UHGV virus genome: UHGV-1364441
Strand: one strand, 5' to 3'
Source: a virus
Length of the DNA: 64,000 bases
The position numbers and the translations under genes were made by a program. Within the stretch, counting starts at the first letter, position 1. Every line of letters starts with the position of its first letter. The notes beneath the pieces are model-generated. The model worked only from the letters and a program-made list of their open reading frames with translations, was not told the origin of the DNA and searched no databases. Positions 44,684 to 64,000 of the stretch are shown here, piece after piece.

Positions 44684-45118
44684 CTACCCCATAATTCGAT
44701 ATTTCTCTATAGACTCATCGTAGCTTGTGTATACATATGGCTCTGTATCATCGGCATAAGCCGCGACTTCCAGAGCATGAACGGGATTGTATACCGCGTC
44801 ATTTTCCAGGCGATCGCTCGAATACAGATGTCCAGCTAAAACCGTAAGCGCCGGGCGACTCATTCTGTAGATCTCTGCCACATCGCTATCTACAACCTGT
44901 CCAAATGATGTGTCGCCGCGCTCCAGCAATATCGTTTTAAGCGCAGGCCACCACGGACCATAAAGGTGATAAAGCTGTGGATCTTTCTTTAGTCTTTCAA
45001 CCATCCCAGCGAGATATACTGTCAGGAACTCGTCTTCACTCCTGCCATTGAGCGCCTGCGGCAAAATTTCTTCAAGGTAAGATTCTGTCGGTTTAACTGT
45101 ATCAATTAATGTCGTCAT
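44684..45118 (-). CDS. Hypothetical protein (144 aa)
   Basis: ORF immediately downstream of the DarB-like gene. Confidence 0.45.
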   Translation of the reverse strand: MTTLIDTVKPTESYLEEILPQALNGRSEDEFLTVYLAGMVERLKKDPQLYHLYGPWWPALKTILLERGDTSFGQVVDSDVAEIYRMSRPALTVLAGHLYSSDRLENDAVYNPVHALEVAAYADDTEPYVYTSYDESIEKYRIMG

Positions 45119-45154: not shown

Positions 45155-48100
45155 TTAAGCCGCATCGGCGATTATTTTACGTAGTTCATCTACCGAGTAA
45201 CGAGTAGATACCATCCATGCCGGACGGTCAAAGTTCACATCAGCAACCGGGTTTGCTTCAAAATTCCAGAAACGCCCGCCAATCTTCTTAATCGCGTCCT
45301 TGGCGTTCCGTATTGTCGAGGAACCTGGCTGATCGGCAATGAGATAAACGGCACCCACATCTTCACTGACACTCCACCAGCGCCCGCGAACACGGGCTTT
45401 AGCGCGAATCGGCTTATCATTAACCACAATGATATAATCATCGTTCGCAGCTTCTTCAGCTCTGGCTTCAGCCACTGCCGCCTGCTCTTCTCTTTTGCTT
45501 TCAGCCTGCTCAAGTCTTTCTGCGATCTCTGATTCGGTGGCTCCGCCGTTTTTCAGCGATACATAGTCTTGCCACGTTGCCGATTTGAGCGCATCTGGTA
45601 ACTCATTCACATAGTCCCCGTCTTTCAAAGCTCGAGCACGGCGGACAGCCATTTCGACCAGGCGGTTAACAGAAACAGCATCAGCAAAATCGTCCTTACT
45701 AATGTGTTTTTCATCAAATGCATTGATGACAGCCCCCACCTTAATCCACTGTGCTGCTGGCGAATCCAGAGGATTATCGGCCTGAACAATGGCTAATTTC
45801 GCTCCATCGACACCATTATTAGCCAGCTGCTCCAATGCCGACCAGCCATCGGCATCGCTGAGTGATTTATATTGCTCAAACAATGCATCGCGCCAGGCCA
45901 CCAGCGCAGCTCGTGTTTTCTCAATTTTCGCCGTAATTTTCGCGGCCTTCACCTGATTAAACATCCGTTCAATGTCATCAGTGTTGCTAAAGGCTTTCAT
46001 CCTGCCCTGGAATAAACGGTATGCCACCACGGTCTTCCAGAAAGATTCCAGCCCTTCTCCGGACGGTTTACGGAACAGGCTAAGAATATCTTCAGAAGTA
46101 ACTTTATTAAGTGAGCGACCGGACAAACCACGCCCTGCCATCCAGTTTTCAAACTCCTGGGAAACATCATCCATCGTGGCCTGTGACCCCCATGCCTGCA
46201 TTCCCTGGATGTAATCATATCCATACAATGCCTGGAGGAATCCCTCGCCGTCCACGACATTCAGCGGGTTATCACTGGCTTGTATTTTTGCCACTTCACG
46301 CTTCAGCGCCTCATCGTTGCCATCAGGGTAAATCCACCGCTCAGGCGCTATATCCGATGCTCGCCCGATTTTTTGACCTATTACGCCATCATAAGCCGAT
46401 GACAGTGCAATCTGACCATCATCGGTGCGATAAGCCCAGTATTTAATAGCTGAACCACCGCCCCATACTCTACCAGGCTTCCCGGCAGTGACATTCATTA
46501 CCCCATTGCGAATAGCATCATAGAACTGATCGCGCGTAAGTGTTGTTGATAGCTGGTGGCATTGAACACCACGTGCAGCTGTTTCACGCGATTCTGCAAC
46601 TCCCTCTTCAAAGGTTACCGATTCAATTATCAGGTTAAAGGGCAAAAATAATGCCGTCCCCGGAGAACGAGAGTAACGACTAGCCACATCCAGCCAGGAT
46701 ATGCGGCACGTACACCCGCCCCTTTCCGCATCAATGGCGGTAACACGAACAATTGCTGTCGTATTGTGATTCTCATCGATGATCGCGCGATAATGGCTGC
46801 CCTTGTGCAACAAGATATTTTTCTCAGTGCGTACATACTCCTGTGGGTTCTGCAATACATCGGCATCAAGCTCCAGAACCCCGGCTTTAATCGCACGTTC
46901 CAGATCACCACGAGAACGTTTCATAACGGTGTCAGCGTCTTTAGCTCTGGTGATCGCAAAGCGTAGCTCCCGCACACGTTTTCTGTAGTCTCGCAACTGT
47001 TCCAGAACATATTTCTGCCCGTTCCTGTTCGTCCCCGCTTTAATCAGGTCGTCAAGATTGCGCTGGTAATGCTCTACCTGCTCCATCGCGCTTTTCAGTT
47101 CTGTCTCCATCATGCCGATATCTTTCCCGGCAGCATTCGCCGCTTTCAGGTAGTTATCGAGAGCATTATTGGCTTCGCGTAGGGCTTTCAGTTTCAGACG
47201 TTCTTCACGCTCTTGCGCCTGACGACTCATGATTGCACGGCGTTCTTCCGGATTTGCCGCCAGCATAATGGCGCGTTCATCTGCGTCATCCGCATCACCA
47301 TTGGCGATCTCTGACATGTCGGAGGTCATCACCATATTGATCCAGTCCTTCTTACGTTTCAGCGTATCCAGACGGAAGTCATCAAATGTGCCTTTGCCAC
47401 AATAGTAGTGAACATTGACCTTTTCTTGTGGTGAGCCTACCCGAGCGCCGCGCCCATTACGTTGGTCGATACTGGCAGGAGTCCAGGGTAGTGTCAGATG
47501 GTGGATATCGGTTGTCCCGATGTGCAAGTTAATACCTACTTCAGCCTTCTTGTTACAGATTATGATGCGCGTGCGACCTTCGTTATAGTCGGCGGCAATA
47601 CCTTCCATGCCCTCAAGGCCAGCATCATTTTTAGCTGAGAGATAATCCTCATATTGGGCAAGTTTGCTGTAGTAGGTTTCCCATGCACCTTCTTTGTATT
47701 CACCGTTTTTATTTGGCGTAGGTTCAGTCGGCTTATTCACCTTCTTCAGCTTGACGCCGCCAGCCTGGCTAACTGTCGTCGCATTGATAATGCCTATCTC
47801 CTGCTCCGGCATTTGCAGTGCACTGGCAATAATACGGCGCAGCTTCTGGTGCTGGGCTTTTTCATCAATGAAGACGATTTGTTTACCGTTCTTCAGACCT
47901 TCACGAAGGTTTTCGATCAGCGCGGCATACTTCGGCGGGATGGGGTGTGATACCTGCTGCATATCAATACCGGCAGCCGCAATGGCCTTCAGTATTTCAG
48001 CTTCCAGTTCAATGCCAGCACGTATTTCAACATGCGACGGATGTTCGCTAAAGGTGGTCTTCACTACCTTGCTGGTACGCGTACTGACCAGCCCACCAGC

Positions 48101-51100
48101 GCCATCTTCTTCGGCCTCGTCTACATCATCTGCCACTTTACCGCCAGCTACTTTTGGCAGGGCATCAGCAATAGCTTTTACCTTGTCTGCAAGCTCAACG
48201 GGGAACTGGAATGTAATCGCACTGGCATACAGATCAGGATCTATAGCAACCTTATCCATGTCGCGGATGATGGAGAAGATGAAATCATCCGGTTTTTCGT
48301 TTGTGATATGCCCGTTTTCATCGACCGTCAGCGCATCTTTACTACTTAACTCCTGTGCACGCTTACGAAGTTCTTCGTAAATGGCCTCTTGCTCTCCTGT
48401 CATCGGGATCTGCAAGGTATTCTCGACAATATCAGGGATTTTTACCGTCGCCCCGACGTCCGCAGCAGTCTTCAGAGTAGTCCAGCGATGGAAAATACCA
48501 CGCAGACCATCCAGGTTCTGGAAGCCCACCAGTCCCTGCTTCTCTTCCACCTCACCGGAAATTTTCTGAACCTGAACTGTGGCTGTTTTACCGAACACGC
48601 GAACGAAATCATCCGGCGTAACAATACCCATGCGCATCCACTCTTCCTGCGGAATGACAGTAGACAGCATGTTGAAAGCATCAATCGGGCTGTTCACCAG
48701 CGGTGTTGCCGTCAGCATAACCACACCACGCCCGTTGTTGCGTTTCATCATGTACGCAGCTTTTACAGCCATGTCGCGGGCCATTTTGGATACTGCCGGG
48801 TTAGGCAAATATGCCAGTTGCCCCGCTTCGCGCCCGGCGCTAAAGGAGTTGCGGTAGTTATGCCCTTCGTCGGCAATTACGCTATCGAAGTTCATATCCT
48901 CAAAGTACGGGATATTCTGCTTCTTCGTTGTACCGGTATTTGCGGCCTGGTCCTTAATCTTGTTCTTCTTCTGCGCGTCACGGTGTTTGCCAGATGCCAG
49001 GTCAAGACGCCCCATTTCCACAGCATTAAAGACCGCTTGCTGTGAGTTTTCCTCAATGGTTTCTTCTCGTAGCGGGATAGACGCGAATTGCTCTTTTGTC
49101 ATGATGACCGTTCGCCAATTTGACGACGGGATCATGTTCATGCGCTGAACGATAACGGCGCTGGCGGACTCTTTCACAACATTTCTGGTAAGAGCCTGCC
49201 CGTTACTGTCGAGGCGTGGTTCGCCATTTTCATCAAGCACCGGCGCGGTCAGAATATTTCCGCTGTCATCACGAACTTCATCCAAACCGATAAACATCAT
49301 ATTGGCGAAGGCATCAGCACTGTAGAAACTCTGTGCCTCGTGATACCAGTTCTGATAAACCGCCTTCGGAACAACAATACACGTGCGTTTAGTGCGACCT
49401 GTTTCGAAGTTATACGCCTCAAGCGCAAGCGCGGTCGTGGTTTTACCCAGCCCGGTGCCAAATCCCATGATGCCGCGCCCATCTTCTGATAAGCGACGAA
49501 CTTCTTCATTCTGATAAGTCAGAGGAATGCGCTTCCCACTAATCCCCTCCAGGCCAAGCGGTGCGTCAGAATGCGTAAACGGGATGAAGCCATTAAATGC
49601 GTCGTTATAGTCGCGGGCTATCTGATCAGCCTGCGGGTGAGTGCGTAACCAGTCGTTGAAGCTAATTTCCAGTTGAGCAATCTTATCCAGGTACTCGTTA
49701 GCGTTCTGCCCACGCGGTTTAATGCCGTTCAGGTAGTTTTCTAACTGGTTCAGGAAGCCGTCTTTATTGTTGGCCTTCTTGAACTCATTCCCGTTTTTGC
49801 CGTTTACGGTTCGTAGTTGATAGCCAGTAAATACCCCGTCCTTACCTTCGTAATCGTCCGGAGATACCAGAATGCCGTCCTCAACCTTAAGGTCGGGTTC
49901 TGTATACTTAAACTCGTCATAGCCTTGCTCTGCCAGGAACTCTTTTATCAAGCGGCGATCCAGCCAGCGGGCGTTCAGATTAACGGTGACTTTATTTAGT
50001 GGCGTGAAAATGCGTTTCTCTTCGATTTTCGCCAACTGACGCTCAAAGTTCGCTTTCTGCTCACCTGTTGACGCATCACGCCAGCCCACCAGCAATGCTG
50101 TTTTGGTTGCAATATCGCCGCTGGTGGCGCGGTCCATAGGCAGCAGGCAGCCATACCCATCAATAGCGATATCATCAAATTTCGCCAGGTATTCCAGAGC
50201 AGCATCGTCGTCTCCTGGCAGTTCGCCAGCAAACGCCTCACGAAAATAGTCCAGTGTGATTGGATTAAGTGCCACGTCACTGAAAAGGTGGGTTACAACT
50301 TGTTCCGGGCGTGTAAAGTCAATACCGGCAGCACCATCCGTTACATCAAGTCGTCCAGCAAGGAGGTCAGAAGCAGAGCCGTCCTGTTTCACGTTGCCAG
50401 TGAAAGTCATCCAGTTTTTAGCGCCAGCTTCAGCAATCCCATTCAGCTTAATCGCGTGCGGCGGACCATACTTCGCAATTTCGGCTTCCGCCAGGCGCGC
50501 GGCATCAGCAAGTTCATCATCAACATTTTCCCCCAGATTACGCTTATCAAGCGCCTTGTTGATCAACTGCCCTATCAGTGCGCCGCGCATAACGCGTTCT
50601 CTGTCTTTTTCTCTCTGCTTGCCAGCAAAGCGAATCATTGCCGCTACTTCATCACTGATAACCGACGGATAGTCGGACGCGATCGCCGATATCTGGTCCC
50701 ATGACAACGCCAGAATGCCATTTGTTGACTGAAACGCGATCTGCAGATCACCAAACGTCGTAACACCATATCGATTTACATCAAGCGCGGAGGATTTGGT
50801 TGTCGCGTCCTTGACCCATTTCAGACCATCAAACTCATGCCAGATGCCGCCTACAAGGCGTTTATCGCCCACTTTCGCGCCCTGCCATGCCTGAGTAGTT
50901 ACGCCAAGCAAATCCCAATTAATGCGGCTTTCAAAGCGGCGCGATAGAGCGGTTTTCATCGACTCATTGGATACACGACCGTCCTTTTTCACCACCAGGG
51001 TATTGCGGAAGCTGGTACGCTCCATATCGCCGTAAACAAATCGCTTCCCTTCGGTTGTAAACCATTTCCCTTTGAGGAAGGTATCCCAAAGGACGTTTGC

Positions 51101-51994
51101 CGACTTGAGCGTTGCATCATCCGTGTCGGGGATCATCTCCAGGAAGGTTTCCGGGTGTTTACGCAATACCCATACGTCCACCACTGTATCTGTACCGGAT
51201 TCGCTGAACGTACCAGAAGGCATACGATGTGCGCCCAAAAATTCCGCTTTACGGCTGACTTTATCGCGCAATTTTTTGTATTTCGTACCATCGGTCATGC
51301 CATTCGGCACCACCAATACAATTAGTCCACCAGGCTTAACCTTGTCGATCGTGCGCAGCACAAAATAATTGCCAACGTTCTTCTCGTTTGCATATGCCGG
51401 ATCAAGCCCGGCGACACCGGAACGCCCTTCGCCAAACGGTACGTTACCAACAGCATGGTCATACATTGCGTCTTTCGCCGCCAGAGCTTCAAACGCCCCG
51501 ATATTCACATCGTCTTCCGGGTGCAAAAGCTGGTTTATTCGACCGGAAATCGGAGACAGTTCGGCGCTGGTCATTATCATGCCCTGCCGTTTTGTCTCCT
51601 GGAAAATACCTGTGCCCGCTGATGGTTCCAGTACGTGCCCACCATCAATACCGTAGTCAGCAAACAGATCCCATATACCTTCAGCCATAAACTGTGGCGT
51701 GTAGTATTCGTATTGGCTGCCCTCACCATCTGTCAGGCCACCTTCACCGGTATACCCGGCAAGAATCTGACGTTGTTCGTCAGTTAATTTCGCCCCATCG
51801 AAGCCGGGCGGAAGGGAATTAAGAAGATTTACTGCGGCATTGTTTGCTGCCCGGCGTGTTTTCTGAATACTGACGCCATCGGCTTTCCTGACGCCAAAGG
51901 TCGCAACAGCACGTAATTTATGCAACCGACTAACAATTTCAATCAGTTCGCCTAAGCTGGAGGCTTCACTGATTGAATGAAGTAGTTTGTCCAA
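45155..51994 (-). CDS. darB: DarB-like giant anti-restriction protein: N6-adenine methyltransferase plus SF2 (DEGH/SNF2-like) helicase, 2279 aa
   Basis: SAM-binding LEPSAGTG, NVPFG motif, helicase Walker A GTGLGKT, DEGH box, LTATP, QRNGRGAR; size matches P1 DarB. Confidence 0.8.
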   Translation of the reverse strand: MDKLLHSISEASSLGELIEIVSRLHKLRAVATFGVRKADGVSIQKTRRAANNAAVNLLNSLPPGFDGAKLTDEQRQILAGYTGEGGLTDGEGSQYEYYTPQFMAEGIWDLFADYGIDGGHVLEPSAGTGIFQETKRQGMIMTSAELSPISGRINQLLHPEDDVNIGAFEALAAKDAMYDHAVGNVPFGEGRSGVAGLDPAYANEKNVGNYFVLRTIDKVKPGGLIVLVVPNGMTDGTKYKKLRDKVSRKAEFLGAHRMPSGTFSESGTDTVVDVWVLRKHPETFLEMIPDTDDATLKSANVLWDTFLKGKWFTTEGKRFVYGDMERTSFRNTLVVKKDGRVSNESMKTALSRRFESRINWDLLGVTTQAWQGAKVGDKRLVGGIWHEFDGLKWVKDATTKSSALDVNRYGVTTFGDLQIAFQSTNGILALSWDQISAIASDYPSVISDEVAAMIRFAGKQREKDRERVMRGALIGQLINKALDKRNLGENVDDELADAARLAEAEIAKYGPPHAIKLNGIAEAGAKNWMTFTGNVKQDGSASDLLAGRLDVTDGAAGIDFTRPEQVVTHLFSDVALNPITLDYFREAFAGELPGDDDAALEYLAKFDDIAIDGYGCLLPMDRATSGDIATKTALLVGWRDASTGEQKANFERQLAKIEEKRIFTPLNKVTVNLNARWLDRRLIKEFLAEQGYDEFKYTEPDLKVEDGILVSPDDYEGKDGVFTGYQLRTVNGKNGNEFKKANNKDGFLNQLENYLNGIKPRGQNANEYLDKIAQLEISFNDWLRTHPQADQIARDYNDAFNGFIPFTHSDAPLGLEGISGKRIPLTYQNEEVRRLSEDGRGIMGFGTGLGKTTTALALEAYNFETGRTKRTCIVVPKAVYQNWYHEAQSFYSADAFANMMFIGLDEVRDDSGNILTAPVLDENGEPRLDSNGQALTRNVVKESASAVIVQRMNMIPSSNWRTVIMTKEQFASIPLREETIEENSQQAVFNAVEMGRLDLASGKHRDAQKKNKIKDQAANTGTTKKQNIPYFEDMNFDSVIADEGHNYRNSFSAGREAGQLAYLPNPAVSKMARDMAVKAAYMMKRNNGRGVVMLTATPLVNSPIDAFNMLSTVIPQEEWMRMGIVTPDDFVRVFGKTATVQVQKISGEVEEKQGLVGFQNLDGLRGIFHRWTTLKTAADVGATVKIPDIVENTLQIPMTGEQEAIYEELRKRAQELSSKDALTVDENGHITNEKPDDFIFSIIRDMDKVAIDPDLYASAITFQFPVELADKVKAIADALPKVAGGKVADDVDEAEEDGAGGLVSTRTSKVVKTTFSEHPSHVEIRAGIELEAEILKAIAAAGIDMQQVSHPIPPKYAALIENLREGLKNGKQIVFIDEKAQHQKLRRIIASALQMPEQEIGIINATTVSQAGGVKLKKVNKPTEPTPNKNGEYKEGAWETYYSKLAQYEDYLSAKNDAGLEGMEGIAADYNEGRTRIIICNKKAEVGINLHIGTTDIHHLTLPWTPASIDQRNGRGARVGSPQEKVNVHYYCGKGTFDDFRLDTLKRKKDWINMVMTSDMSEIANGDADDADERAIMLAANPEERRAIMSRQAQEREERLKLKALREANNALDNYLKAANAAGKDIGMMETELKSAMEQVEHYQRNLDDLIKAGTNRNGQKYVLEQLRDYRKRVRELRFAITRAKDADTVMKRSRGDLERAIKAGVLELDADVLQNPQEYVRTEKNILLHKGSHYRAIIDENHNTTAIVRVTAIDAERGGCTCRISWLDVASRYSRSPGTALFLPFNLIIESVTFEEGVAESRETAARGVQCHQLSTTLTRDQFYDAIRNGVMNVTAGKPGRVWGGGSAIKYWAYRTDDGQIALSSAYDGVIGQKIGRASDIAPERWIYPDGNDEALKREVAKIQASDNPLNVVDGEGFLQALYGYDYIQGMQAWGSQATMDDVSQEFENWMAGRGLSGRSLNKVTSEDILSLFRKPSGEGLESFWKTVVAYRLFQGRMKAFSNTDDIERMFNQVKAAKITAKIEKTRAALVAWRDALFEQYKSLSDADGWSALEQLANNGVDGAKLAIVQADNPLDSPAAQWIKVGAVINAFDEKHISKDDFADAVSVNRLVEMAVRRARALKDGDYVNELPDALKSATWQDYVSLKNGGATESEIAERLEQAESKREEQAAVAEARAEEAANDDYIIVVNDKPIRAKARVRGRWWSVSEDVGAVYLIADQPGSSTIRNAKDAIKKIGGRFWNFEANPVADVNFDRPAWMVSTRYSVDELRKIIADAA

Positions 51995-52145
51995 AGGATT
52001 TCCCCCTCTAAACCGTAAAAATTTCCGCTATGCGGTACGGTTGAGAGGGTATGGAGAATGTTATTTTCATGGGGACGATACTACCGTCAAAATCACATAC
52101 TCCCCATAGTTTGCCTACTTATTAACCCATGACCGGGAGAAAAAT

Positions 52146-52631: not shown

Positions 52632-52663
52632 AAAAAGCCCCGGCTTGGCCGGGGCATCACGCT

Positions 52664-53975: not shown

Positions 53976-54120
53976 TCGTATTCAGGCTGCTAAACCCGGT
54001 CGCAGAATTTGCTACGACGACATGAATATAAGCCTGAAAACATGGAAGATCAACTAAAAATTTCAGCAATGGATGACTTCAGTCGATGATGCAGATCATA
54101 CATTCCGATTTAGAAACGGC

Positions 54121-54144
54121 AAATTAATTTTCTAACACAAAATG
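54121..54144 (-). promoter_or_regulatory. Operator-like motif (minus strand TTTTGTGTTAGAAAATTAATTT), ~150 bp upstream of the 53975 start
   Basis: Instance of the recurrent motif. Confidence 0.5.
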
Positions 54145-54191
54145 TCGAGCGAGCATTTTCCGATCATTGGGATGTTTTGTAGACGCACAGG

Positions 54192-55154: not shown

Positions 55155-55214
55155 CAGATAGTTCCGTGCAAAAATCTATCTACCGTATAAATCTATGCCA
55201 GTGGATTTATACAC

Positions 55215-55249
55215 CAAAAAGCCGCTTCTCAGCGGCTTTTGCTTTTTTT
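55215..55249. terminator. Bidirectional rho-independent terminator
   Basis: GCCGC-TTCTCA-GCGGC hairpin with T-runs on both strands. Confidence 0.65.
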
Positions 55250-55324
55250 GGCAGTCGCTACCGGAGCAGTGACCGCGATCCTACTCGATCACATCGGACA
55301 GGATCAACAGTGTATATAAATACA

Positions 55325-55345
55325 CTATGTTAGAAATTTAATTTC
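55325..55345 (+). promoter_or_regulatory. Operator-like motif CTATGTTAGAAATTTAATTTC
   Basis: Instance of the recurrent motif between the late-operon end and the terminator. Confidence 0.5.
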
Positions 55346-55354
55346 ATGCAGCGG

Positions 55355-56353
55355 TTATCCCCGTCGCGAAACGAAGAGTAATGGGGTAGTATTTTTGCTC
55401 TCCTTCGGCGATAACTCCGGCTCTTTCTTGCCTGATATCGGCAAGCCATAAGTCGCATTTGCCCCCAGAGATTCAAGCATCGCAGCCACTATGCGAGCAT
55501 CATCTTCAGACTGCATACGGCAGAGCGCCCGACGCTGTTCTGCGCTGATAAAAACAGGCAGCTCCTGGATAGCATCACGCAAAATCCTACGGCATTTCTT
55601 CGCATCTTCGCCCTGGCTTTCCATCATTGCGGCCTGGTTGCGTAATTTGTCGCGAAGTTGCATATTTTCCACTTCAAGGAGCATCAATTCTGACTCAAGG
55701 GCTTCACGCTGTGCTGACTCGAAAATAGCCTGCTGATTCTTCATTGCTGAAAAGTGGTGAACAAGATCCGTAGCCGCGTTATCGGTAAAACCTTGTTCGA
55801 TAAGTGCCGCATGAATAGCCGCGTCGCGCTCTTCTGCTGATTCAAGCATCAGGCTTTTCTTGTCGAGGCTGATATAGTTAGGAACAGTTACGTAATCAAA
55901 GCCGTGGAAAGACTTTACCAGGGATACCGATGAATCTGGACCAGATGTAGCCCACGACCAACCACCAGCACCAGAGTTAATCATGCCCTGAACAATACGC
56001 CCGGTGTCTGTATCCAGTATTTCCTGCGTATGAGTAACAATGCCGTTGTCGTCAATCGAAATGTCGATAGTCCTGTTTGACGGCACGTTCTCCAATACAA
56101 CAGGCTTCCCATCTACCATCACAACAGAGACTTCCGGCAAGTTCAGGCTTTTCGTTTTGTTATAGTGCATCGCCCGGCGACCATGACCGTAATAACCATA
56201 CATCTCACCCAGCGCGATACGCTCTTTTGTTTCTGGCGAGTTGAATGTGTCTCGTACCGACTGAATGACGTAATTTCGGTTGTTCTGCGGTGTGTGTTTG
56301 CGGATTTTCTCTACCAGGGAGAAGCGATCCGTAACAGTATTCAGTGATTGCAT
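55355..56353 (-). CDS. Hypothetical protein (332 aa), last gene of a long minus-strand operon
   Basis: Coiled-coil C-terminal half; possible head-assembly role is inference only. Confidence 0.45.
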   Translation of the reverse strand: MQSLNTVTDRFSLVEKIRKHTPQNNRNYVIQSVRDTFNSPETKERIALGEMYGYYGHGRRAMHYNKTKSLNLPEVSVVMVDGKPVVLENVPSNRTIDISIDDNGIVTHTQEILDTDTGRIVQGMINSGAGGWSWATSGPDSSVSLVKSFHGFDYVTVPNYISLDKKSLMLESAEERDAAIHAALIEQGFTDNAATDLVHHFSAMKNQQAIFESAQREALESELMLLEVENMQLRDKLRNQAAMMESQGEDAKKCRRILRDAIQELPVFISAEQRRALCRMQSEDDARIVAAMLESLGANATYGLPISGKKEPELSPKESKNTTPLLFVSRRG

Positions 56354-56366
56354 TATTTCCCTCCGG

Positions 56367-58049
56367 TTAATTGCTCATCACAAATTTTGCAAAGTTTATT
56401 AACTGTTCTGGCGTCCAGTTTTCCGGATCGTCACCGGACGACAACGGCGCGGATTCGTACATACCATGCTCGTTGTTTTGCTCTGATTCATTCGCCTTAA
56501 ACTCTTTGATCATGGTGTTGAGAGTGTCATCGTCGATGTGCAACTGCTCAGTGAACAGATAACGCATAAACGCGTCGCTACCAGCCAGTTTCGGGTTGTT
56601 CTGGATCTGGTCCATAATTTGGGAGATGACAGCAACAAAGTTGGCGCGTGCATCCAGTTCTCGGTTTTCCTCTTCCTGGATAGCAGTGTTCATTGAGTTG
56701 AATTGCACGTCATAAGGGCGGTTTGTTTCGGTGTAAACCTTGCCGTATTTATAAGCGAGGTGAATGTCCAGAAGCCGATAAATAGTTCGCTGGGCGGCCT
56801 GTCTGATCCAGTTCGCACGCAATGCAGCCTGGATAGCAGTTTGCTGCCAGCCGCCTTCTCCAAGCCCTCCGCTCATCTGATCAGCCCAGCCAAGCATTGT
56901 TGCGTCAATGCCGAGGCTTGCAGCAAGCTGCCGGAGGTGAAACATAACGTCTTCGATACCACTGATATCTGCGGGTATGGATTGCGTATCAATGGTGATG
57001 CCGTTCTTCCCGTCTCCCATAACAGGTATCAGATGGTTAAGCACAGTCGGAATAGCGTTGGCATTAATCGACCTTTGCGCCACCAGGTCACTATGACGCT
57101 TCAATGCCTGGCTGACGCCACGCGTATAGTTCGCCGCATTAACCGGGTCCAGTGTGTTCGTCGTAAGAGCAATCAGGCGGTCAATTTTGGCTGCATTATT
57201 TCGCGTTGATTTCAGCGCGGCGAGCGAAGCACATAAATTAAGGTAAGGTTCATAGCTGTATTCCAGGAATGAAGTTCCGTAATTCTGCGTCTCCATTAAC
57301 GGCTTATCAGCCTGATCACTTAACAGTGAGTACCCTTTTGTGCCGTAGCTAACCGGAATAACTTTATGCTGTGGCGTCCAATAGGGATTTTTCATGGAAA
57401 CCAGATTCCACGGTTCGGTTATTACTCTGCGCAAACTATGCGTATCCAGAATGTAATCACCACTGAAACCTACCAGCTGGCTACCACGATAAAACTCCTG
57501 GACGAAGTGTGGCAGAGTGTAATAACTGGACTCAATGCCTGTTATCCCCCTGCCCTGTTCAGCATAAGGTCGGACATAAGACACCCCAAAGATAGCCATA
57601 ATCATGGCCCATGAAGGAAGTCCGTCATTAATCATCGCCCCCAAATCAGCGGTTAACTCTTCACATCTACTTACTGCCTCAGCATCGGAACCATCCTTTG
57701 GCGAAAGGATGAATGCTTGTCCGGTTTTTTTTGAAGGCGCAAGCGCATGTGCAATGTGAATGTTTAAAGCCGTCGAGATAGTCGGGCTTTTAGCCATCGT
57801 TTCCAGGATGTTGTACTTTTGCAGGCGCTCGCCGGGCAGTTCAGCGGATAAAGAAATTGAATCTGCTGCACTCGTCATGCCATCGCTGTTGCTCCCCAGT
57901 ATACCTGGACGTAAAGCAGACAGGCCGGAACGAGCAACGACACTATGCCCGCTCGTAAAAACGACCGGATCGGCGGGCGTAACATCACCACCGTTGAAGG
58001 CTTTCTTCAATGCTGACAGAAAGCCTTTGTTTTTGTCTTTCGTTGCCAT
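56367..58049 (-). CDS. Hypothetical protein (560 aa), possible virion or portal-class protein
   Basis: Size and operon position only. Confidence 0.45.
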   Translation of the reverse strand: MATKDKNKGFLSALKKAFNGGDVTPADPVVFTSGHSVVARSGLSALRPGILGSNSDGMTSAADSISLSAELPGERLQKYNILETMAKSPTISTALNIHIAHALAPSKKTGQAFILSPKDGSDAEAVSRCEELTADLGAMINDGLPSWAMIMAIFGVSYVRPYAEQGRGITGIESSYYTLPHFVQEFYRGSQLVGFSGDYILDTHSLRRVITEPWNLVSMKNPYWTPQHKVIPVSYGTKGYSLLSDQADKPLMETQNYGTSFLEYSYEPYLNLCASLAALKSTRNNAAKIDRLIALTTNTLDPVNAANYTRGVSQALKRHSDLVAQRSINANAIPTVLNHLIPVMGDGKNGITIDTQSIPADISGIEDVMFHLRQLAASLGIDATMLGWADQMSGGLGEGGWQQTAIQAALRANWIRQAAQRTIYRLLDIHLAYKYGKVYTETNRPYDVQFNSMNTAIQEEENRELDARANFVAVISQIMDQIQNNPKLAGSDAFMRYLFTEQLHIDDDTLNTMIKEFKANESEQNNEHGMYESAPLSSGDDPENWTPEQLINFAKFVMSN

Positions 58050-58113
58050 GAATCACCGCAAATTGTTTCCAGTTTTGCGGCAGCATAATCAGTATGTGAT
58101 TTCAGCGGTTGGC

Positions 58114-59511
58114 TTAGTTTTCCATACTGCAATTATTTAGAACTGTAGAATTTTCAAACATAGCAAAGTTCAGACCTTTCCCTTCGCCAAATTCACCCTC
58201 AATTTCATCAGAAACGGCAGATAAAATGCTACGCAGATCGACATCTCCGCCGCCGAACATATCGCCTAACGCTTGTTGTTGGTGAATAAGTTCATCGTTA
58301 ATTTTTTGCGCCAGTTTCTTGAAAGCGGCCCCCATTCGCTTAGCGCTTCGGTTGTTGGCAACAATAAACAGAGCAAGCGCTTCTGCTTCCGGAGTGCTAT
58401 CTCCAAACAATCCACGCTGTGCGATCACCTCTTCTACTGCCTGACCGTTATCTTTTGCTTCACGAACAAGGTTAATTGCTTCCTGTAGCGCTGCAATAGC
58501 CTGTTTATCCAGGCCATTAACCTGCTCTATACCGTCCACTAAGCCTGTTACTGCGTCATGGTGAGCGTCGCCAGACAGCGACTGCATTTGCGCAAAATCG
58601 CTGGCTGCCGTATTTAATGCGGTCAGGATATTACGCATTTCCGGATCTGGCTCTTCCGACACTAGCCGAACAAGCCTTTCATCCTTGTACGCTTTGGCAA
58701 AAATTGCATTCTGGATGCGATCGATAAGCTGTTTCGTGGGACGCCCATCGGCAGTAAGCAAGCCTGCCGTCGCTGTATCGCCAATTTCGCGCAAAAACGC
58801 ACGAATAAACGCATCATTGGACCGCGCCAGCAGATTTCCATCATCTGAAGGATTAAATAGCGCCATGACGCTCTCAGTGAGAAATTGCGCATCCGCATAC
58901 GCTTTTTCACTTGCTGCCATCTCTTGCAGATCGCTAATGTTTGAATCGCGGGCAAATTGAGCGCGGTCTACATCTGTGAGTCTTTCTCGCACTAGTACGG
59001 GCATAGACATTTGCGAAATTTCGTCAGGATTCAGACCAAACTCTTTCGCATGGTCGATCAGGTACTGGCGATACTCATCCGCCTGTCCTTGCTCATAGGC
59101 ACGCCAGATACCCATACTCCTTCCGTTGCCGGATTCAACAACGTTGTCCGGACCAACTATCGGCGCTCCGTGGCTGCTCATACCGGAATCCGTTAATTGT
59201 GCCGGGCGTAAATTGGAGGCAATACGGTTAACCTGGAGTTTGCTGGATAGCCGGGTACGATCTCGTGGTTGGAGTTCTTCCGGGAAGGCCGGGTTAATCA
59301 TACCGTCAAGGTTGTTCGAAATGATCAGACTGCTGGCATCAACGACCTTAAAAGCCGTCTTTACCTCTGCACCTTTGCTGGTGACTACGTAGCTACTTCG
59401 CCCCAGGCGTGTTTCTTTCCTCTCTAATGAAGAAACCAGAGCAATGACGCTGTTAATATCTGCGGCCTCGGAAAGCGCAGAAGTAACTGATTTGTTCAAA
59501 ATACACTCCAA
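58114..59511 (-). CDS. Hypothetical protein (465 aa) with possible ParB/Srx-like N-terminal motif
   Basis: ELQPRDRTR segment resembles the ParB-like nuclease-domain QPR motif; weak. Confidence 0.4.
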   Translation of the reverse strand: MECILNKSVTSALSEAADINSVIALVSSLERKETRLGRSSYVVTSKGAEVKTAFKVVDASSLIISNNLDGMINPAFPEELQPRDRTRLSSKLQVNRIASNLRPAQLTDSGMSSHGAPIVGPDNVVESGNGRSMGIWRAYEQGQADEYRQYLIDHAKEFGLNPDEISQMSMPVLVRERLTDVDRAQFARDSNISDLQEMAASEKAYADAQFLTESVMALFNPSDDGNLLARSNDAFIRAFLREIGDTATAGLLTADGRPTKQLIDRIQNAIFAKAYKDERLVRLVSEEPDPEMRNILTALNTAASDFAQMQSLSGDAHHDAVTGLVDGIEQVNGLDKQAIAALQEAINLVREAKDNGQAVEEVIAQRGLFGDSTPEAEALALFIVANNRSAKRMGAAFKKLAQKINDELIHQQQALGDMFGGGDVDLRSILSAVSDEIEGEFGEGKGLNFAMFENSTVLNNCSMEN

Positions 59512-59593
59512 CTATAGAGAAAGCTGTGAGTGTAAAAAGAGTGTGATTTATGTGAGAACAGAGAAGTGAAAGGGGCATTTCGCCCCCTTTTGA

Positions 59594-59968
59594 TTACCCG
59601 GCATAACCGTTGGCTTTCACCCAGCTTATGGTCTGTTCTTTAGCCTGCTCCAACGTAAGGAACTCGCCAACATAGTTTGAGATCCCACGCAGCGCATCAA
59701 TAAATTCCATTTGTGTGGACTTTGTGAACACGCCGCCCAGGAAGTCAGTCACTATCTTAGGAACTTCATCTGCAACAGGATCAGACTGTGGTTGTGGTTG
59801 CGGTTCCGACATCGGTTGAGCGGCAGTACCCAACCCCAGTTTAAGCATCAGATCAACAATCTGCTTACCAATGGCGACGCGTTGTAATACTGGCGCGGTT
59901 TTCTGCGCCTGCATTAAATCTGATAGCTCTTTACCCAATTTCAGACGGTCTAAAACAGAGATAGTCAT
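59594..59968 (-). CDS. Hypothetical protein (124 aa)
   Basis: Coupled ORF in same operon. Confidence 0.45.
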   Translation of the reverse strand: MTISVLDRLKLGKELSDLMQAQKTAPVLQRVAIGKQIVDLMLKLGLGTAAQPMSEPQPQPQSDPVADEVPKIVTDFLGGVFTKSTQMEFIDALRGISNYVGEFLTLEQAKEQTISWVKANGYAG

Positions 59969-61905
59969 TAAGCACCTCCCTGCTGAATTTCAGCCAGAAT
60001 GTTGATCAGGTAGTCAACTGCTGCGCCAACCGTTGATTCGTTCTCGTCGTATCGACCAGCACTGATAAGAGCGTTTGCAGCTTCCTGCACATGGTCAAGT
60101 TCGGCACTGATTACCGTCAGATCGCGAGATGTAAACTGCACCGGGACGGATTTAAGGTACTCCAACGCTTTATCTGCTTCCTGATCAGCTTCAGTTGCCG
60201 CTTCTTCAGCGTCTTCCGGCGTTGGCTGTTGCTCTGGTGCTGTTTGTGGGTGTGATTCTGGCTCAACTACAGGTGCTAATTCAGGCTCTGGCGTTACTTC
60301 GTTTGAATGATTTTGAAGGGCGTTATATACGTCCATAATGAAAAGGTTCTCCCCATCACCAAGTGGATACGCCACGTTTGGAAACGCTTTGCGGAAAAGA
60401 ATTTTCACTTGCGCCTTGAATGTTTTCAGGTCACTGCCAAACAGGTCTACATAGCCATCAATATGTTTCGACATGCTGGACACAACCAATTGGCCTGCAA
60501 AATCTTTCAGCTCATCTTCATCAGGAAGATAGAGCAACTCGTACTGGCTGACTTCTTCATCTGTCAGTTTACGGTCATACGTAATGATACCGTGACGAGC
60601 ATATTCGTAATACTGATCAGCCTGGTCAGGACGATCAAGCACGGCTTTATTTCCATCCGGCACAGCACCAACACCAGCCGGGCGAGATTGAAGTGCATAG
60701 TGGTATTTACCTACATCTTGGCTCTCTGGTTGTGATACTGGGTTCGTCTCGGGGTCTGTCTGTGGTGGTTCGGAGTCTTCCTGCTGGCCTGGTAACACAT
60801 CAACTTTATATTTATCTGCGTTATGCTCTCGGTAGGCTTTAAGTAATTTGGTTGCAGCATCTGCCAAACTGCCTCCTTTGACAGCACTGACATCAATACT
60901 GAATTTACCTTCAGGTGCTACTATCGTAACGAAATTGTCACTGCCGGACGTGACATAATTAACTTCAGCGCCATTATCCAGCACTGTTTTTCCGTCAATG
61001 GCAAGATTATGTTTTACATGTCGCAGCTGGTCACTAAACGCTCGTTCCTTCGTTTTTTTACCTTTAGCAGACAACAATTTATCGCGTTTTTCTTGTAATT
61101 CCTCGTTGATGGCTTTCTGGGCATCAAGTTTTTTTTGCATCTCCGTAAGAGCAGCACGCTTTTCAGTCAGCCCACGTTGCGCAACGTCCACCTGATCAAT
61201 CATTATTGACCGTTCTTCTGCCAGTTTATCTGCTTCATTGAGATAACTCTCAATATCTGCCTTCATTTTGTCCTGGCGCTCTTTTGCTTTCTTAAATTTT
61301 TCGCTGTTACGCTCAATCAAATTAGATAGCGCCTGGCATACCTGGCTTAAAGAAACATCTCTCCCACCAATCGGGGCGACAACGTGAGTTACGTTACGCT
61401 TATTAAGTAAAAACTGAAATGCAACAAGCTCGTCGTTACTCTTTATTTTTGCCCCGTCAGCTGTTGGAGAGTGGAAAATTATGCTTGTACTCTGCCCGTC
61501 AGTAAGCGGTATCTGCGCGGTCAAAACAGGGATATTAGCTACCCGACGTACACGACCGATAATCGCACCACCAATACAATTACGTCCATTTTCATCGGTC
61601 CCGGCTTCATCAGTCCCTGCCATAATATTCGTACCATTCAGGCCACGATTCAGCGCACGGACGAAAGCTCGCATTGTTTGAGCTAACCGAATTCTGGTTG
61701 TAGTTATGGACTCAAACATAGCTTCGTCAGACACAACCAGAATTTCATTGCCCATATAGGCAAGCTCAATATCTTCTAAGGTCGCCGCCTCAAAAATCAG
61801 GTCATCTTCGCTTAATTCTTCTGAAGACCAGCGACTTGGCATATAGCCGGGGATCGTATCAGCAAAAGTAGACTGAATATTAATTCGTAAAGGATTGTTA
61901 ATCAT
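59968..61905 (-). CDS. Large hypothetical protein, possible DarA-like internal head protein
   Basis: Size close to P1 DarA and position after LydA/LydB-like genes; start set at ATG 61905 (GGAGG 6 nt upstream). Confidence 0.4.
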   Translation of the reverse strand: MINNPLRINIQSTFADTIPGYMPSRWSSEELSEDDLIFEAATLEDIELAYMGNEILVVSDEAMFESITTTRIRLAQTMRAFVRALNRGLNGTNIMAGTDEAGTDENGRNCIGGAIIGRVRRVANIPVLTAQIPLTDGQSTSIIFHSPTADGAKIKSNDELVAFQFLLNKRNVTHVVAPIGGRDVSLSQVCQALSNLIERNSEKFKKAKERQDKMKADIESYLNEADKLAEERSIMIDQVDVAQRGLTEKRAALTEMQKKLDAQKAINEELQEKRDKLLSAKGKKTKERAFSDQLRHVKHNLAIDGKTVLDNGAEVNYVTSGSDNFVTIVAPEGKFSIDVSAVKGGSLADAATKLLKAYREHNADKYKVDVLPGQQEDSEPPQTDPETNPVSQPESQDVGKYHYALQSRPAGVGAVPDGNKAVLDRPDQADQYYEYARHGIITYDRKLTDEEVSQYELLYLPDEDELKDFAGQLVVSSMSKHIDGYVDLFGSDLKTFKAQVKILFRKAFPNVAYPLGDGENLFIMDVYNALQNHSNEVTPEPELAPVVEPESHPQTAPEQQPTPEDAEEAATEADQEADKALEYLKSVPVQFTSRDLTVISAELDHVQEAANALISAGRYDENESTVGAAVDYLINILAEIQQGGA

Positions 61906-62518
61906 GCTCATCCTCCAGGCGCGCGATTTCTTCTTTAAGAGCACGTGTCTTAGCTACTTCCTGAGACAAGGCAGCTTTAACATTACCCGTATCTTGCATT
62001 ACTTTGTCTGACTTGCTCTGGAGTTTAGACAGTTTGTCGTTAGCATTAGCGATATCTTCACGGAGTGCATCACGTGATTCTTTCGCTTCAGCTAATTTCT
62101 GAGCGTTAGATTTAACTCCCTGCCGCTTCTTATTTCCGTCATCAATATTTTTTGCTGCACGAGCAAGTTTTCGAGCTAATGACTTCTGGAAAGAAGTTGC
62201 TCCACGATTAAATAAAGCCGCAAGAGATTGCCCCAAAGCCGACATTGTTTTTACTGGCTTGAACGGTACTGTTTTACCATTCAGTTTGATCCCAGATATA
62301 TCACCGGTATCGTTAACCTGAACTTCCATTGTCTGTTCATCAATACCAATAAGGGTAAACGTGCGCGTCATGATCCCATCTTTCTTCCTGCCATTACTTG
62401 CAGGGATCACCCTCGCTATCTTGTAACCACCTTTGCTGATTTCTTTGACGAGTTTTGACAGCCCCTTTTCGTTTAACTCATCATAATTAAGAAGAACATA
62501 ATTATTCTTATTTGACAT
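61898..62518 (-). CDS. Coiled-coil hypothetical protein (206 aa)
   Basis: Start at ATG 62518 with AAGGAG RBS. Confidence 0.45.
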   Translation of the reverse strand: MSNKNNYVLLNYDELNEKGLSKLVKEISKGGYKIARVIPASNGRKKDGIMTRTFTLIGIDEQTMEVQVNDTGDISGIKLNGKTVPFKPVKTMSALGQSLAALFNRGATSFQKSLARKLARAAKNIDDGNKKRQGVKSNAQKLAEAKESRDALREDIANANDKLSKLQSKSDKVMQDTGNVKAALSQEVAKTRALKEEIARLEDEHD

Positions 62519-62954
62519 CCCAGTCTCCTTCACGCTTTTCGATCGTAAACTGGCGCTCTATGCAGTCATTGATAGGGAAAATGCGATAAAGCGGATTCAG
62601 TCGACAGTTACCGTTAGTCAATGTGACTTTCAGATCCCACTTCGTTGGTTCAAGATATTTCGTATCGATGAGCAAATACTCTTCTCTCTCACCGCGTTTT
62701 GAGGCGTCAACTGGTCGCGTTTTCCCTGAAATAACCACAGATGGATTTTTCAGGTCTTGCAACCAATATTCGATTTGAGCATTGCTGACCCAGCTTCGCT
62801 TAACACGTAGCGAAACAGGAAATGCTATAGCGGATTCTTTCACTACAGCGTCACCAATACTCAAAATCTCAACACTCTTGCGACGAAAAATGAAACGGTC
62901 AATGATGGCAACAAATGCCATGATAAAAATGAAATAATTTCCAAAGTTACCCAT
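62508..62954 (-). CDS. Membrane-anchored protein, possible LydB-like antiholin
   Basis: N-terminal TM helix; 148 aa; follows a holin-like gene as lydB does in P1. Confidence 0.35.
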   Translation of the reverse strand: MGNFGNYFIFIMAFVAIIDRFIFRRKSVEILSIGDAVVKESAIAFPVSLRVKRSWVSNAQIEYWLQDLKNPSVVISGKTRPVDASKRGEREEYLLIDTKYLEPTKWDLKVTLTNGNCRLNPLYRIFPINDCIERQFTIEKREGDWDVK

Positions 62955-63280
62955 TATTTCTCTCCACCTTTTCCCCCATTCGCTATTACGCTTAAGAGAT
63001 TCAAGACGTTACTAGCTCTGGACTTCAAGCCCTGTAAAATTTCACTACCGTTGTTACTGGCAATCAGAACAACGCAGAAAATGATACCTTCAGGCCATTC
63101 TTGGCTAACCGCCACCCCATACCCCGCAAGCCCGGCTGTTACCGCAGTAAACAATTCACTCGCAAGATTGAGCAGGGACGCAGAAATGCGCCCGTCTCTA
63201 ACTCCGAGAAGGAATACGCCGGTTCCACTTAGTAGGGATGTTATGACTACTACAGCCAGATTTTCATAATCTGCAAACAT
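62954..63280 (-). CDS. Holin-like small membrane protein, possible LydA-like
   Basis: 108 aa with about three hydrophobic helices; first gene of the operon. Confidence 0.4.
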   Translation of the reverse strand: MFADYENLAVVVITSLLSGTGVFLLGVRDGRISASLLNLASELFTAVTAGLAGYGVAVSQEWPEGIIFCVVLIASNNGSEILQGLKSRASNVLNLLSVIANGGKGGEK

Positions 63281-63384
63281 ACCCCTCCAGAAATAACATC
63301 TAATGCGCCACTAACTTAGCCAGTTTGTTATTTCCTTACAGGACATCTTCTAGAATCTCCTTCCTTAACATACAAGGGGGACAT

Positions 63385-63945
63385 ATGCTTATTGGATACA
63401 TTCGCGTATCAACTAATGACCAAAACACTGCTTTACAACGAAACGCTCTTGAAAGCGCAGGATGTGAGCTAATTTTTGAGGACAAGGCGAGCGGCAAAAA
63501 GGCTGAGCGCCCTGGGTTAAAAAAGGTACTCCGTATGCTTTCCAGAGGTGATACCCTGGTCGTATGGAAGTTAGACCGTCTTGGGCGCAGCATGCGTCAC
63601 TTAGTTGTGCTGGTGGAAGAGCTGCGTGACAGAGGCATTAACTTCCGGAGTCTCACTGACTCCATCGACACCAGTACACCAATGGGGCGCTTTTTCTTTC
63701 ACGTAATGGGGGCGCTGGCAGAAATGGAACGTGAGCTTATCGTTGAACGTACACGCGCTGGACTTGATGCAGCTCGCGCAGAAGGTCGTATAGGTGGGCG
63801 TCGACCTAAATACCAAGAAGAAACATGGCAGCAAATGCGGCGATTGCTGGAGAAGGGCATCCCCCGTAAGCAGGTTGCAATCATCTATGATGTGGCTGTT
63901 TCCACGCTTTATAAGAAGTTTCCGGCGTCATCCTTTCAATCCTAA
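63385..63945 (+). CDS. cin: Cin/Hin/Gin-family serine DNA invertase
   Basis: MLIGYIRVSTNDQN ... LVVWKLDRLGRS ... GRRPK, near-colinear with P1 Cin; 186 aa from ATG 63385. Confidence 0.85.
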   Translation: MLIGYIRVSTNDQNTALQRNALESAGCELIFEDKASGKKAERPGLKKVLRMLSRGDTLVVWKLDRLGRSMRHLVVLVEELRDRGINFRSLTDSIDTSTPMGRFFFHVMGALAEMERELIVERTRAGLDAARAEGRIGGRRPKYQEETWQQMRRLLEKGIPRKQVAIIYDVAVSTLYKKFPASSFQS

Positions 63946-64000
63946 ACCTTGGTTTAAGAGAACTCGGTACCAGCGGTGAAAAGATCCCCCTGTTGAGTAC

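What the first reader, a model, noticed from the sequence alone, without database searches (positions are those of the whole stretch)
55355..63280. Eight-gene minus-strand late operon with holin-like, antiholin-like and large uncharacterised proteins
The operon opens with a three-helix 108-aa membrane protein and a 148-aa membrane-anchored protein (sizes match P1 LydA and LydB as I recall), then proteins of 206, 645, 124, 465, 560 and 332 aa, and ends at a bidirectional terminator. In P1 lydA-lydB precede darA and other internal head proteins of the Dar anti-restriction system. None of the six downstream proteins could be assigned by eye, so this may be a divergent capsid-delivered anti-defence module.
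Basis: inference. Interest (0 to 1): 0.55.

Follow-up and report, generated by a model that had tools for sequence, protein, structure and literature searches.

The report
Phage D6 lysis, anti-restriction, head genes

Summary

Refinements:
- The string is probably three late transcription units (lydA-ddrA, ddrB, prt-pro). Each is preceded by AAAT[C/A]ACA-N7-TAnnnT, which has 5 copies in the window against 0.07 expected.
- Placing prt-pro right after ddrB is a D6-lineage rearrangement. All 24 loci from other species have the P1 layout.
- DdrB lacks the C-terminal half of P1 DdrB.
- D6's orf23/orf24 insert between ddrB and prt is absent here.

At least 114 sequenced plasmids carry the cluster. 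Verdict: already known, low interest.

The parts
63313..63333 (-). Late-promoter-like motif AAATAACA-N7-TAAGTT, 33 nt upstream of lydA. Proposed promoter of transcription unit 1.
   Evidence: One of 5 exact matches to AAATMACA-N7-TANNNT in the window against 0.07 expected. The box is conserved upstream of lydA in Enterobacter, Pantoea and Citrobacter relatives despite diverged flanks. Function is inferred.
62954..63280 (-). lydA: holin, 108 aa, three hydrophobic segments.
   Evidence: 43% identical to P1 LydA, E=3e-23. PHROG holin family, 8e-39. The Pfam LydA family hit is below its cutoff (18 vs 28.4 bits). 100% identical to D6 orf30. Hydropathy.
62508..62954 (-). lydB: holin antagonist, 148 aa, N-terminal membrane anchor.
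   Evidence: Pfam LydB 1e-24, above its cutoff. 34% identical to P1 LydB, E=5e-29. Hydrophobic segment at residues 4-22.
61898..62518 (-). hdf: DarA-N-domain paralog, 206 aa, partner of DarA inside the capsid.
   Evidence: Pfam DarA_N 6e-18. PHROG Hdf-like 2e-76. 40% identical to P1 Hdf. Matches PDB 9ukm_H at E=2e-25.
59968..61905 (-). darA: internal head, anti-restriction and head-size protein, 645 aa.
   Evidence: Pfam DarA_N 5e-40 and DarA_C 9e-19. NCBIfam NF052326 anti_RE_DarA equivalog, 1137 bits against a cutoff of 350. Matches PDB 9ukm_I at E=8e-121 over residues 35-644.
59594..59968 (-). ddrA: 124 aa Dar component.
   Evidence: PHROG DdrA-like 3e-49. 33% identical to P1 DdrA, E=2e-20.
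59572..59586 (-). GC hairpin GGGGCGAAATGCCCC just after ddrA, followed by TTTCACTT. Possible weak terminator or attenuator ending unit 1.
   Evidence: Sequence. The tool lists the same hairpin on the + strand only. Relatives have a stronger hairpin with a T-run at the same place. Function is inferred.
59529..59549 (-). Late-promoter-like motif AAATCACA-N7-TACACT in the 94-nt ddrA-ddrB gap. Proposed promoter of unit 2.
   Evidence: A one-mismatch copy lies upstream of ddrB in Citrobacter locus L010.
58114..59499 (-). ddrB, short form: 461 aa from the TTG at 59499 (465 aa from 59511). ParB-like domain plus a helical region.
   Evidence: Pfam ddrB-ParB 2e-42. 64% identical to P1 DdrB residues 2-442 of 995 and collinear until its end. 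No match to the P1 C-terminal half.
58082..58102 (-). Late-promoter-like motif AAATCACA-N7-TATGCT in the 64-nt ddrB-prt gap. Proposed promoter of unit 3.
   Evidence: The breakpoint of D6's orf23/orf24 insert lies immediately upstream of it. P1 prt likewise has its own late promoter, LPpro.
56367..58049 (-). prt: portal protein, 560 aa.
   Evidence: 50% identical to P1 Prt. Matches PDB 9ums_C at E=4e-170. PHROG portal 7e-230.
55355..56353 (-). pro: prohead (capsid maturation) protease, 332 aa. N-terminal assemblin-fold domain plus a long C-terminal helix.
55217..55240 (.). Bidirectional intrinsic terminator: A-run, 10-bp stem, T-run. Ends the cluster.
45155..51994 (-). darB: 2279-aa methyltransferase/helicase Dar effector, outside the finding's coordinates, with its own motif at 52046-52066.
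   Evidence: Pfam N6_Mtase (just below cutoff), SNF2-rel_dom, ResIII and Helicase_C. Collinear with D6 orf15, annotated 'similar to P1 darB'. Motif.
44684..45118 (-). ulx homolog, 144 aa.
   Evidence: ORF. Position is collinear with D6 orf14, annotated 'similar to P1 gene ulx'. No family hit of its own in Pfam or NCBIfam.

Best explanation
The region is the late-gene cluster lydA-lydB-hdf-darA-ddrA-ddrB-prt-pro of a phage D6-type member of the P1 family of plasmid prophages. By homology with P1, it works as follows. LydA is a holin and LydB is a membrane-anchored antagonist that delays it, together setting lysis time. Hdf and DarA pair on the inner capsid surface at penton-hexon junctions, favour normal-sized heads, and are required for loading the other Dar proteins. 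DdrA, DdrB, and then DarB and Ulx (encoded about 6 kb downstream) are loaded into the head and ejected with the DNA, protecting it in cis from type I restriction. Prt forms the portal vertex. Pro is an assemblin-fold serine protease that trims the capsid protein and the DarA N-terminus. Transcription most likely starts at three lineage-specific late promoters, in front of lydA, ddrB and prt, and stops at the terminator after pro. What is shown here: gene content, homology, domain content, the Pro fold, the non-random motif and the synteny. What is inferred: virion incorporation, anti-restriction activity, lysis timing and promoter function.
Against: No experiment on the D6-type Dar proteins was found, and identity to P1 is only 33-40% for LydB, Hdf, DarA and DdrA. 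DdrB lacks the C-terminal half that P1 has, so its processing must differ. The P1-type late-promoter box is not significantly present, and the D6-type motif has no transcript evidence behind it. One copy lies upstream of the lpa homolog; from memory, P1 lpa is not a late gene, which would be odd for a late promoter. The LydA Pfam hit is below its cutoff. The candidate catalytic residues of Pro were not superposed on the gp21 active site.
Confidence: 0.88

Rival explanations
1. The eight genes form one operon driven only by the promoter upstream of lydA, and the internal motifs are not promoters.
For: All genes are on one strand. No strong terminator lies inside the cluster; the hairpin after ddrA has a poor T-run. 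Read-through from lydA is therefore likely in any case.
Against: The two internal gaps each hold an exact copy of a motif expected 0.07 times in the whole window. P1 prt has its own annotated late promoter. All 24 other species keep prt-pro as a separate, oppositely oriented unit. Insertions of 1-2 kb sit between ddrB and prt, including an IS with an opposed tnpB, which would be polar on an essential portal gene without its own promoter.
Confidence: 0.2
2. In the D6 lineage, Hdf and DarA serve only as capsid-size and scaffolding factors, and the cluster no longer provides anti-restriction.
For: In P1, DarA and Hdf have a morphogenetic role (PMC12810830). Identity to P1 is low at 38-40%. DdrB is truncated.
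Against: The full Dar set is retained and intact: hdf, darA, ddrA, ddrB, darB (2279 aa) and ulx. The DdrB ParB-like half is the best-conserved protein of the cluster, at 64% to P1 and 77-79% to Enterobacter, Pantoea and Citrobacter relatives. DarA passes the curated equivalog threshold.
Confidence: 0.1
3. The region is a decaying remnant of a defective prophage, and the ORFs are not functional.
For: Many P1-like plasmids carry insertion sequences, and the ddrB-prt slot is hit by IS elements in some relatives.
Against: All eight ORFs are intact, have Shine-Dalgarno sequences, and are 97-100% identical to those of the viable phage D6. At least 114 plasmids hold 80% or more of the region.
Confidence: 0.02

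Closest known systems
Escherichia phage D6 orf30-orf21 (MF356679 / NC_050154; Gilcrease & Casjens 2018, cited in PMC9024508)
   Same: Same genes in the same order and orientation. DNA is 98.7% identical and proteins 97-100% identical. Same flanks: cin upstream and repL downstream. Same promoter-like motifs.
   Different: D6 has a 1.1-kb insert (orf23 and the DUF4145 protein orf24) between ddrB and prt that this window lacks, and the last few codons of ddrB differ as a result. The insert-free junction is the commoner form, seen in 93 of 115 plasmids.
Phage P1 darA operon (lydA-lydB-hdf-darA-ddrA-ddrB) and Dar anti-restriction system
   Same: The same six genes in the same order next to cin. Same domain content. 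darB and ulx are encoded elsewhere in the genome.
   Different: Identity is only 33-64%. There is no lydC between lydA and cin. DdrB is 461 aa against 995 aa and lacks the C-terminal half predicted to be a metallopeptidase (PMC5512222). There is a 94-nt gap with a hairpin and a promoter-like motif before ddrB, against 12 nt in P1. The late-promoter box is different. prt-pro follow directly, whereas in P1 they are about 4.5 kb away, on the other strand and divergent from darB.
Phage T4 gp21 prohead protease and herpesvirus assemblins
   Different: Sequence identity is about 12%, and there is no Pfam or PDB sequence match. Pro has a roughly 170-residue C-terminal helical extension.
Phage T4 internal protein IPI* (capsid-packaged anti-restriction protein)
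   Same: Same strategy: proteins packaged in the head and ejected with the DNA to defeat host restriction (PMC12810830, PMC5512222).
   Different: Unrelated proteins. From my own knowledge, IPI* inhibits a type IV enzyme directly, whereas Dar acts against type I systems.

Membership tests
P1-type Dar (defence against restriction) system | DarA with DarA_N and DarA_C domains | tested here: met
   Pfam 5e-40 and 9e-19. NCBIfam equivalog 1137 bits against cutoff 350. PDB 9ukm_I at 8e-121.
P1-type Dar (defence against restriction) system | Hdf, the DarA_N-only paralog, encoded immediately upstream of darA | tested here: met
   It overlaps darA by 8 nt.
P1-type Dar (defence against restriction) system | DdrA homolog immediately after darA | tested here: met
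   PHROG 3e-49. BLASTP to P1 DdrA 2e-20.
P1-type Dar (defence against restriction) system | DdrB with an N-terminal DdrB-type ParB domain | tested here: met
   Pfam PF18763 2e-42. 64% identity to P1 residues 2-442.
P1-type Dar (defence against restriction) system | DdrB C-terminal half (predicted metallopeptidase, P1 residues about 450-995) | tested here: not met
   The protein ends at the equivalent of P1 residue about 440. The short form is also seen in L007, L008, L016 and L018. This is a feature of the P1 protein rather than of the system.
P1-type Dar (defence against restriction) system | DarB (methyltransferase plus helicase, more than 2000 aa) and Ulx encoded in the same genome | tested here: met
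   A 2279-aa ORF with SNF2, ResIII and Helicase_C domains and a borderline N6_Mtase hit. ulx is assigned by collinearity with D6 orf14 only.
P1-type Dar (defence against restriction) system | Transcription from an Lpa-dependent late promoter with the P1 box AAGTGAYTT-N4-TAnnnT | tested here: inconclusive
   The P1-type pattern is not enriched: 15 matches against 11.6 expected. A different, highly non-random motif occupies the equivalent position. The activator was not tested.
P1-type Dar (defence against restriction) system | Proteins packaged in the virion and protecting DNA from type I restriction | not testable with these tools
   Needs virion proteomics and plating on EcoA, EcoB and EcoK hosts.
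LydA/LydB holin-antagonist pair | Small multi-helix membrane protein homologous to P1 LydA, followed by a LydB homolog | tested here: met
   The LydA Pfam hit is below its cutoff, but BLASTP gives 3e-23 and PHROG 8e-39.
LydA/LydB holin-antagonist pair | Holin activity, and premature lysis when lydB is removed | not testable with these tools
   Genetic test needed.
Assemblin-fold prohead proteases (T4 gp21 / HK97 gp4 / herpesvirus) | Assemblin fold | tested here: met
   [not shown]
Assemblin-fold prohead proteases (T4 gp21 / HK97 gp4 / herpesvirus) | Catalytic Ser and His at the active site | tested here: inconclusive
   His57 and Ser133 are invariant and His108 nearly invariant in 45 homologs. 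Their superposition on the gp21 active site was not examined.
Portal proteins | Homology to a structurally solved portal | tested here: met
   PDB 9ums_C (P1 Prt) at E=4e-170. The Pfam Portal_T4 hit is weak and just below its cutoff.

The most novel reading that the evidence does not exclude
The D6 lineage may have rewired late transcription and Dar assembly relative to P1. It would use a distinct late-promoter box (AAAT[C/A/T]ACA-N7-TAnnnT), presumably read by its diverged Lpa homolog, that splits this cluster into three units. An inversion brought prt-pro behind ddrB. The gap between ddrB and the prt promoter acts as a recurrent landing slot for accessory cargo (D6 orf23 and the DUF4145 protein orf24, IS200/IS605, IS100). 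A half-length DdrB without the predicted autoprocessing peptidase would have to enter the head by a different route. I could not read the D6 genome paper, so some of this may already be described there.
Probability: 0.35. Interest if true: 0.25.

Novelty: already known. Interest (0 to 1): 0.12.

Why it matters
The finding matters little as a discovery. The genes are annotated in phage D6, their P1 counterparts are well studied down to cryo-EM structures, and more than a hundred sequenced E. coli, Salmonella and Shigella plasmids carry the same cluster. There are three practical points. First, the RefSeq and PHROGs label 'tail fiber protein' for Pro should read prohead protease. Second, the D6-type promoter motif and the short DdrB give simple handles for comparing Dar assembly between P1 lineages. 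Third, D6-type phage-plasmids are common in livestock and human E. coli, so a working anti-restriction system bears on how readily they spread between strains.

Tried and rejected
- **P1-type late promoter upstream of lydA.** I first read AAGTTAGTG as the P1 -22 box. A relaxed P1-type pattern is not enriched in the window, with 15 matches against 11.6 expected, and an earlier pattern of mine missed the site altogether. That sequence is better explained as the -10 part of the D6-type motif.
- **Sigma-70 promoters and other terminators in the region.** Counts are at or below chance: 10 against 13.4, and 12 against 9.8. Only the terminator at 55217-55240 stands out.
- **Sequence searches for Pro and DdrB against solved structures.** Nothing meaningful. 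Pfam and NCBIfam gave nothing for Pro or DdrA.
- **PADLOC scan of D6 orf23/orf24 and the Dar proteins.** Only weak coiled-coil noise, so there is no evidence that the D6 insert is a known defence gene.
- **Strict D6-type and P1-type motifs in 24 loci from other species.** Each occurs only in its own lineage, so neither is a family-wide signal. A looser version of the D6 box is shared by the nearest relatives.
- **Papers not held.** The D6 genome paper (PMC5800970) and Piya et al. 2017 (PMC6011833) could not be read. Their content is cited only through PMC9024508 and PMC12810830.
Full report
**Observation.** For three of them the longest ORF starts slightly upstream of the likely start. The starts used here are those annotated in phage D6, and each has a Shine-Dalgarno sequence. 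For the sixth gene this gives 461 aa from the TTG at 59499. The first protein has three hydrophobic peaks and the second a single N-terminal hydrophobic segment. Downstream of the last gene, at 55217-55240, is a 10-bp stem flanked by an A-run and a T-run. That is a terminator in both directions by form.

**Identity of the element.** A megablast of 55000-64000 against phage genomes finds Escherichia phage D6 at 98.7% identity over 99% of the query. P1, P7 and other P1-like phages match only the cin gene at the edge. The whole 64-kb window is collinear with D6 at 85-99% identity. In the plasmid collection, 548 records match and at least 114 hold 80% or more of the region. Nearly all are non-mobilizable plasmids of about 90 kb from E. 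coli, Salmonella and Shigella. The window is therefore a D6-type, P1-family plasmid prophage.

**Identity of the genes.** The depositors of D6 annotate the same eight genes as similar to P1 lydA, lydB, hdf, darA, ddrA, ddrB, prt and pro. I tested this directly.
- BLASTP of the window proteins against P1 proteins translated from the P1 reference gives these identities: LydA 43%, LydB 34%, Hdf 40%, DarA 38%, DdrA 33%, DdrB 64% (P1 residues 2-442 only), Prt 50% and Pro 43%. E-values run from 2e-20 to 0. Identity to the D6 proteins is 97-100%.
- Pfam finds LydB, DarA_N (in Hdf and DarA), DarA_C and ddrB-ParB above their cutoffs.
- PHROGs gives holin, lysis determining protein, Hdf-like, DdrA-like and portal.
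- NCBIfam's equivalog model for 'antirestriction phage head protein DarA' scores 1137 bits against a cutoff of 350.
- DarA, Hdf and Prt match the chains of the recently solved P1 virion: 9ukm_I at 8e-121, 9ukm_H at 2e-25 and 9ums_C at 4e-170.
- The other two Dar genes are also in the window. A 2279-aa darB at 45155-51994 carries SNF2/helicase domains and a borderline N6_Mtase hit, and ulx is at 44684-45118.

**Pro.** Pro had no Pfam, NCBIfam or PDB sequence match. RefSeq and PHROGs call it 'tail fiber protein', while the D6 depositors and the P1 literature call it the head processing protease (PMC9024508).
- I collected 275 homologs. Nearly all are on contigs of 80-100 kb, and NCBI names them 'head processing protein'.
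- I aligned 45 of them. His57 and Ser133 (in GGWSW) are invariant, and His108 is nearly invariant.
- The predicted structure has pLDDT 79 overall and about 87-96 across most of residues 31-160.
- Foldseek agrees, with 5jbl at probability 0.99.
Pro is an assemblin-fold prohead protease, and the 'tail fiber' label is an annotation error.

**How it most likely works.** This section is inferred from P1. In P1, 55 DarA-Hdf pairs sit on the inner capsid surface at penton-hexon junctions and contact the DNA. Deleting either one shifts assembly towards small heads and excludes all other Dar proteins. DdrA, DdrB, DarB and Ulx are then loaded in order, and the proteins leave with the DNA and protect it from type I restriction. 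DarA's N-terminus and the capsid protein are cut by Pro (PMC12810830; PMC9024508). DdrB carries a ParB-like domain and, in P1, a C-terminal metallopeptidase predicted to self-process it (PMC5512222). From my own knowledge of the P1 literature, LydA is the holin and LydB delays it. The cluster here has every one of these parts, so I expect the same mechanism. No experiment on the D6-type proteins was found.

**Differences from P1, and refinements to the finding.**
1. **Probably three transcription units.**
   - The first five genes overlap by 1 to 11 nt. There are gaps of 94 nt before ddrB and 64 nt before prt.
   - Looking at the upstream regions of D6 structural genes, I saw a recurring AAAT[C/A]ACA-N7-TAnnnT. 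In the window it has 5 exact matches against 0.07 expected, and 0 of 100 shuffles reach 5.
   - All five are intergenic, on the coding strand, and directly upstream of lydA, ddrB, prt, darB and the lpa homolog. With one mismatch there are 14 matches against 2.6 expected, including sites upstream of the upfC, gene 7 and mat homologs and a CHAP-domain lysin.
   - The motif differs from the P1 late-promoter box AAGTGAYTT-N4-TAnnnT, which I derived from three annotated P1 promoters. That P1 box is not enriched here.
   - The nearest relatives in Enterobacter, Pantoea and Citrobacter keep the D6-type box upstream of lydA despite diverged flanks. The Serratia and Erwinia relatives have the P1-type box.
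   - A GC hairpin follows ddrA at 59572-59586. It is a stronger hairpin with a T-run in those relatives.
2. **The contiguous string is a D6-lineage rearrangement.** In P1, prt-pro lie elsewhere, divergent from darB and with their own late promoter. All 24 loci recovered from other species have that P1 layout, with the lydA-ddrB operon converging on pro from a few kb away. An inversion of the prt-pro(-repL) block explains the D6 order.
3. **DdrB is the short form.** It is collinear with P1 DdrB up to about residue 440 and then ends. Short forms also occur in four other loci.
4. **The D6 insert is absent.** D6's 1.1-kb insert (orf23 and the DUF4145 protein orf24) between ddrB and the prt motif is missing here. 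The insert-free junction is the majority state, in 93 of 115 plasmids. Other plasmids carry IS200/IS605 or IS100 at the same spot. PADLOC does not recognise the D6 insert.
5. **No lydC.** There is no lydC between lydA and cin.

**Verdict.** It is divergent from P1 but not new, because it is essentially the annotated D6 cluster and is widespread in sequenced plasmids. Novelty: already known. Interest: low. The side observations are minor and may be partly covered in the D6 genome paper, which I could not read. They are the lineage-specific promoter motif, the three-unit structure, the inversion, the short DdrB, the insertion slot and the Pro misannotation.

Noticed in passing
window 38020-38040, 52046-52066, 58082-58102, 59529-59549, 63313-63333 (all minus strand); one-mismatch copies at 115, 10607, 14446 (minus) and 52090 (plus), among others: The promoter-like motif AAAT[C/A]ACA-N7-TAnnnT has 5 exact copies against 0.07 expected, and 14 against 2.6 with one mismatch. 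Many copies lie upstream of structural or late genes. It differs from the P1 late-promoter box. One copy precedes the lpa homolog itself, which is unexpected for a late promoter.
   Followed up: partly
window 58103-58153; D6 (NC_050154) 25241-26352; L031 (CP057763) 3204-4893: The short gap between the ddrB stop and the prt promoter motif is a recurrent insertion slot. It is empty here and in 93 of 115 plasmids, holds orf23 plus the DUF4145 protein orf24 in D6, and holds IS200/IS605 tnpA-tnpB in CP057763. In CP066033 an IS100 lies within the matched operon region, but its exact position was not checked. The D6 cargo has no PADLOC match.
   Followed up: partly
[not shown]
   Followed up: yes
loci L007-L030 compared with window 44684-63280: All 24 relatives from other species have darB divergent from prt-pro, which is the P1 layout. 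Only the D6 lineage has ddrB-prt-pro-repL...darB all on one strand, implying an inversion of the prt-pro(-repL) block.
   Followed up: partly
window 52146-52631 (+): A 161-aa CHAP-domain protein (Pfam 3e-7) is divergent from darB and has a one-mismatch late-promoter motif at 52090-52110. The D6 annotation lists no homolog of the P1 endolysin Lyz, so this may be the endolysin that works with LydA. RefSeq calls it 'baseplate hub subunit and tail lysozyme'.
   Followed up: no
window 55309-55326 and 55186-55211: Two palindromes flank the terminator between pro and repL: AGTGTAT-TTAT-ATACACT, and TATAAATC-N10-GATTTATA just upstream of repL. They could be operators or part of the lytic origin control region. 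Not examined.
   Followed up: no
window 58056-58080 (minus strand): A hairpin CCGCAAA-N11-TTTGCGG lies between the prt promoter motif and the prt start codon, in the predicted 5' leader. prt is the only gene of the cluster without a clear Shine-Dalgarno sequence.
   Followed up: no
L007, L008, L016, L018 versus L010, L011, L019-L023: DdrB exists in a short form (about 455-465 aa, no match to the P1 C-terminal half) and a long form with that half, in different P1-family lineages. The N-terminal ParB-like half is the most conserved protein of the whole cluster across genera.
   Followed up: partly
window 63325-63945 (+): The longest cin ORF (206 aa, TTG start) over-extends. By comparison with D6 and P1 the invertase is 186 aa and starts at 63385. 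The invertible tail-fibre segment begins just past the end of the window.
   Followed up: partly
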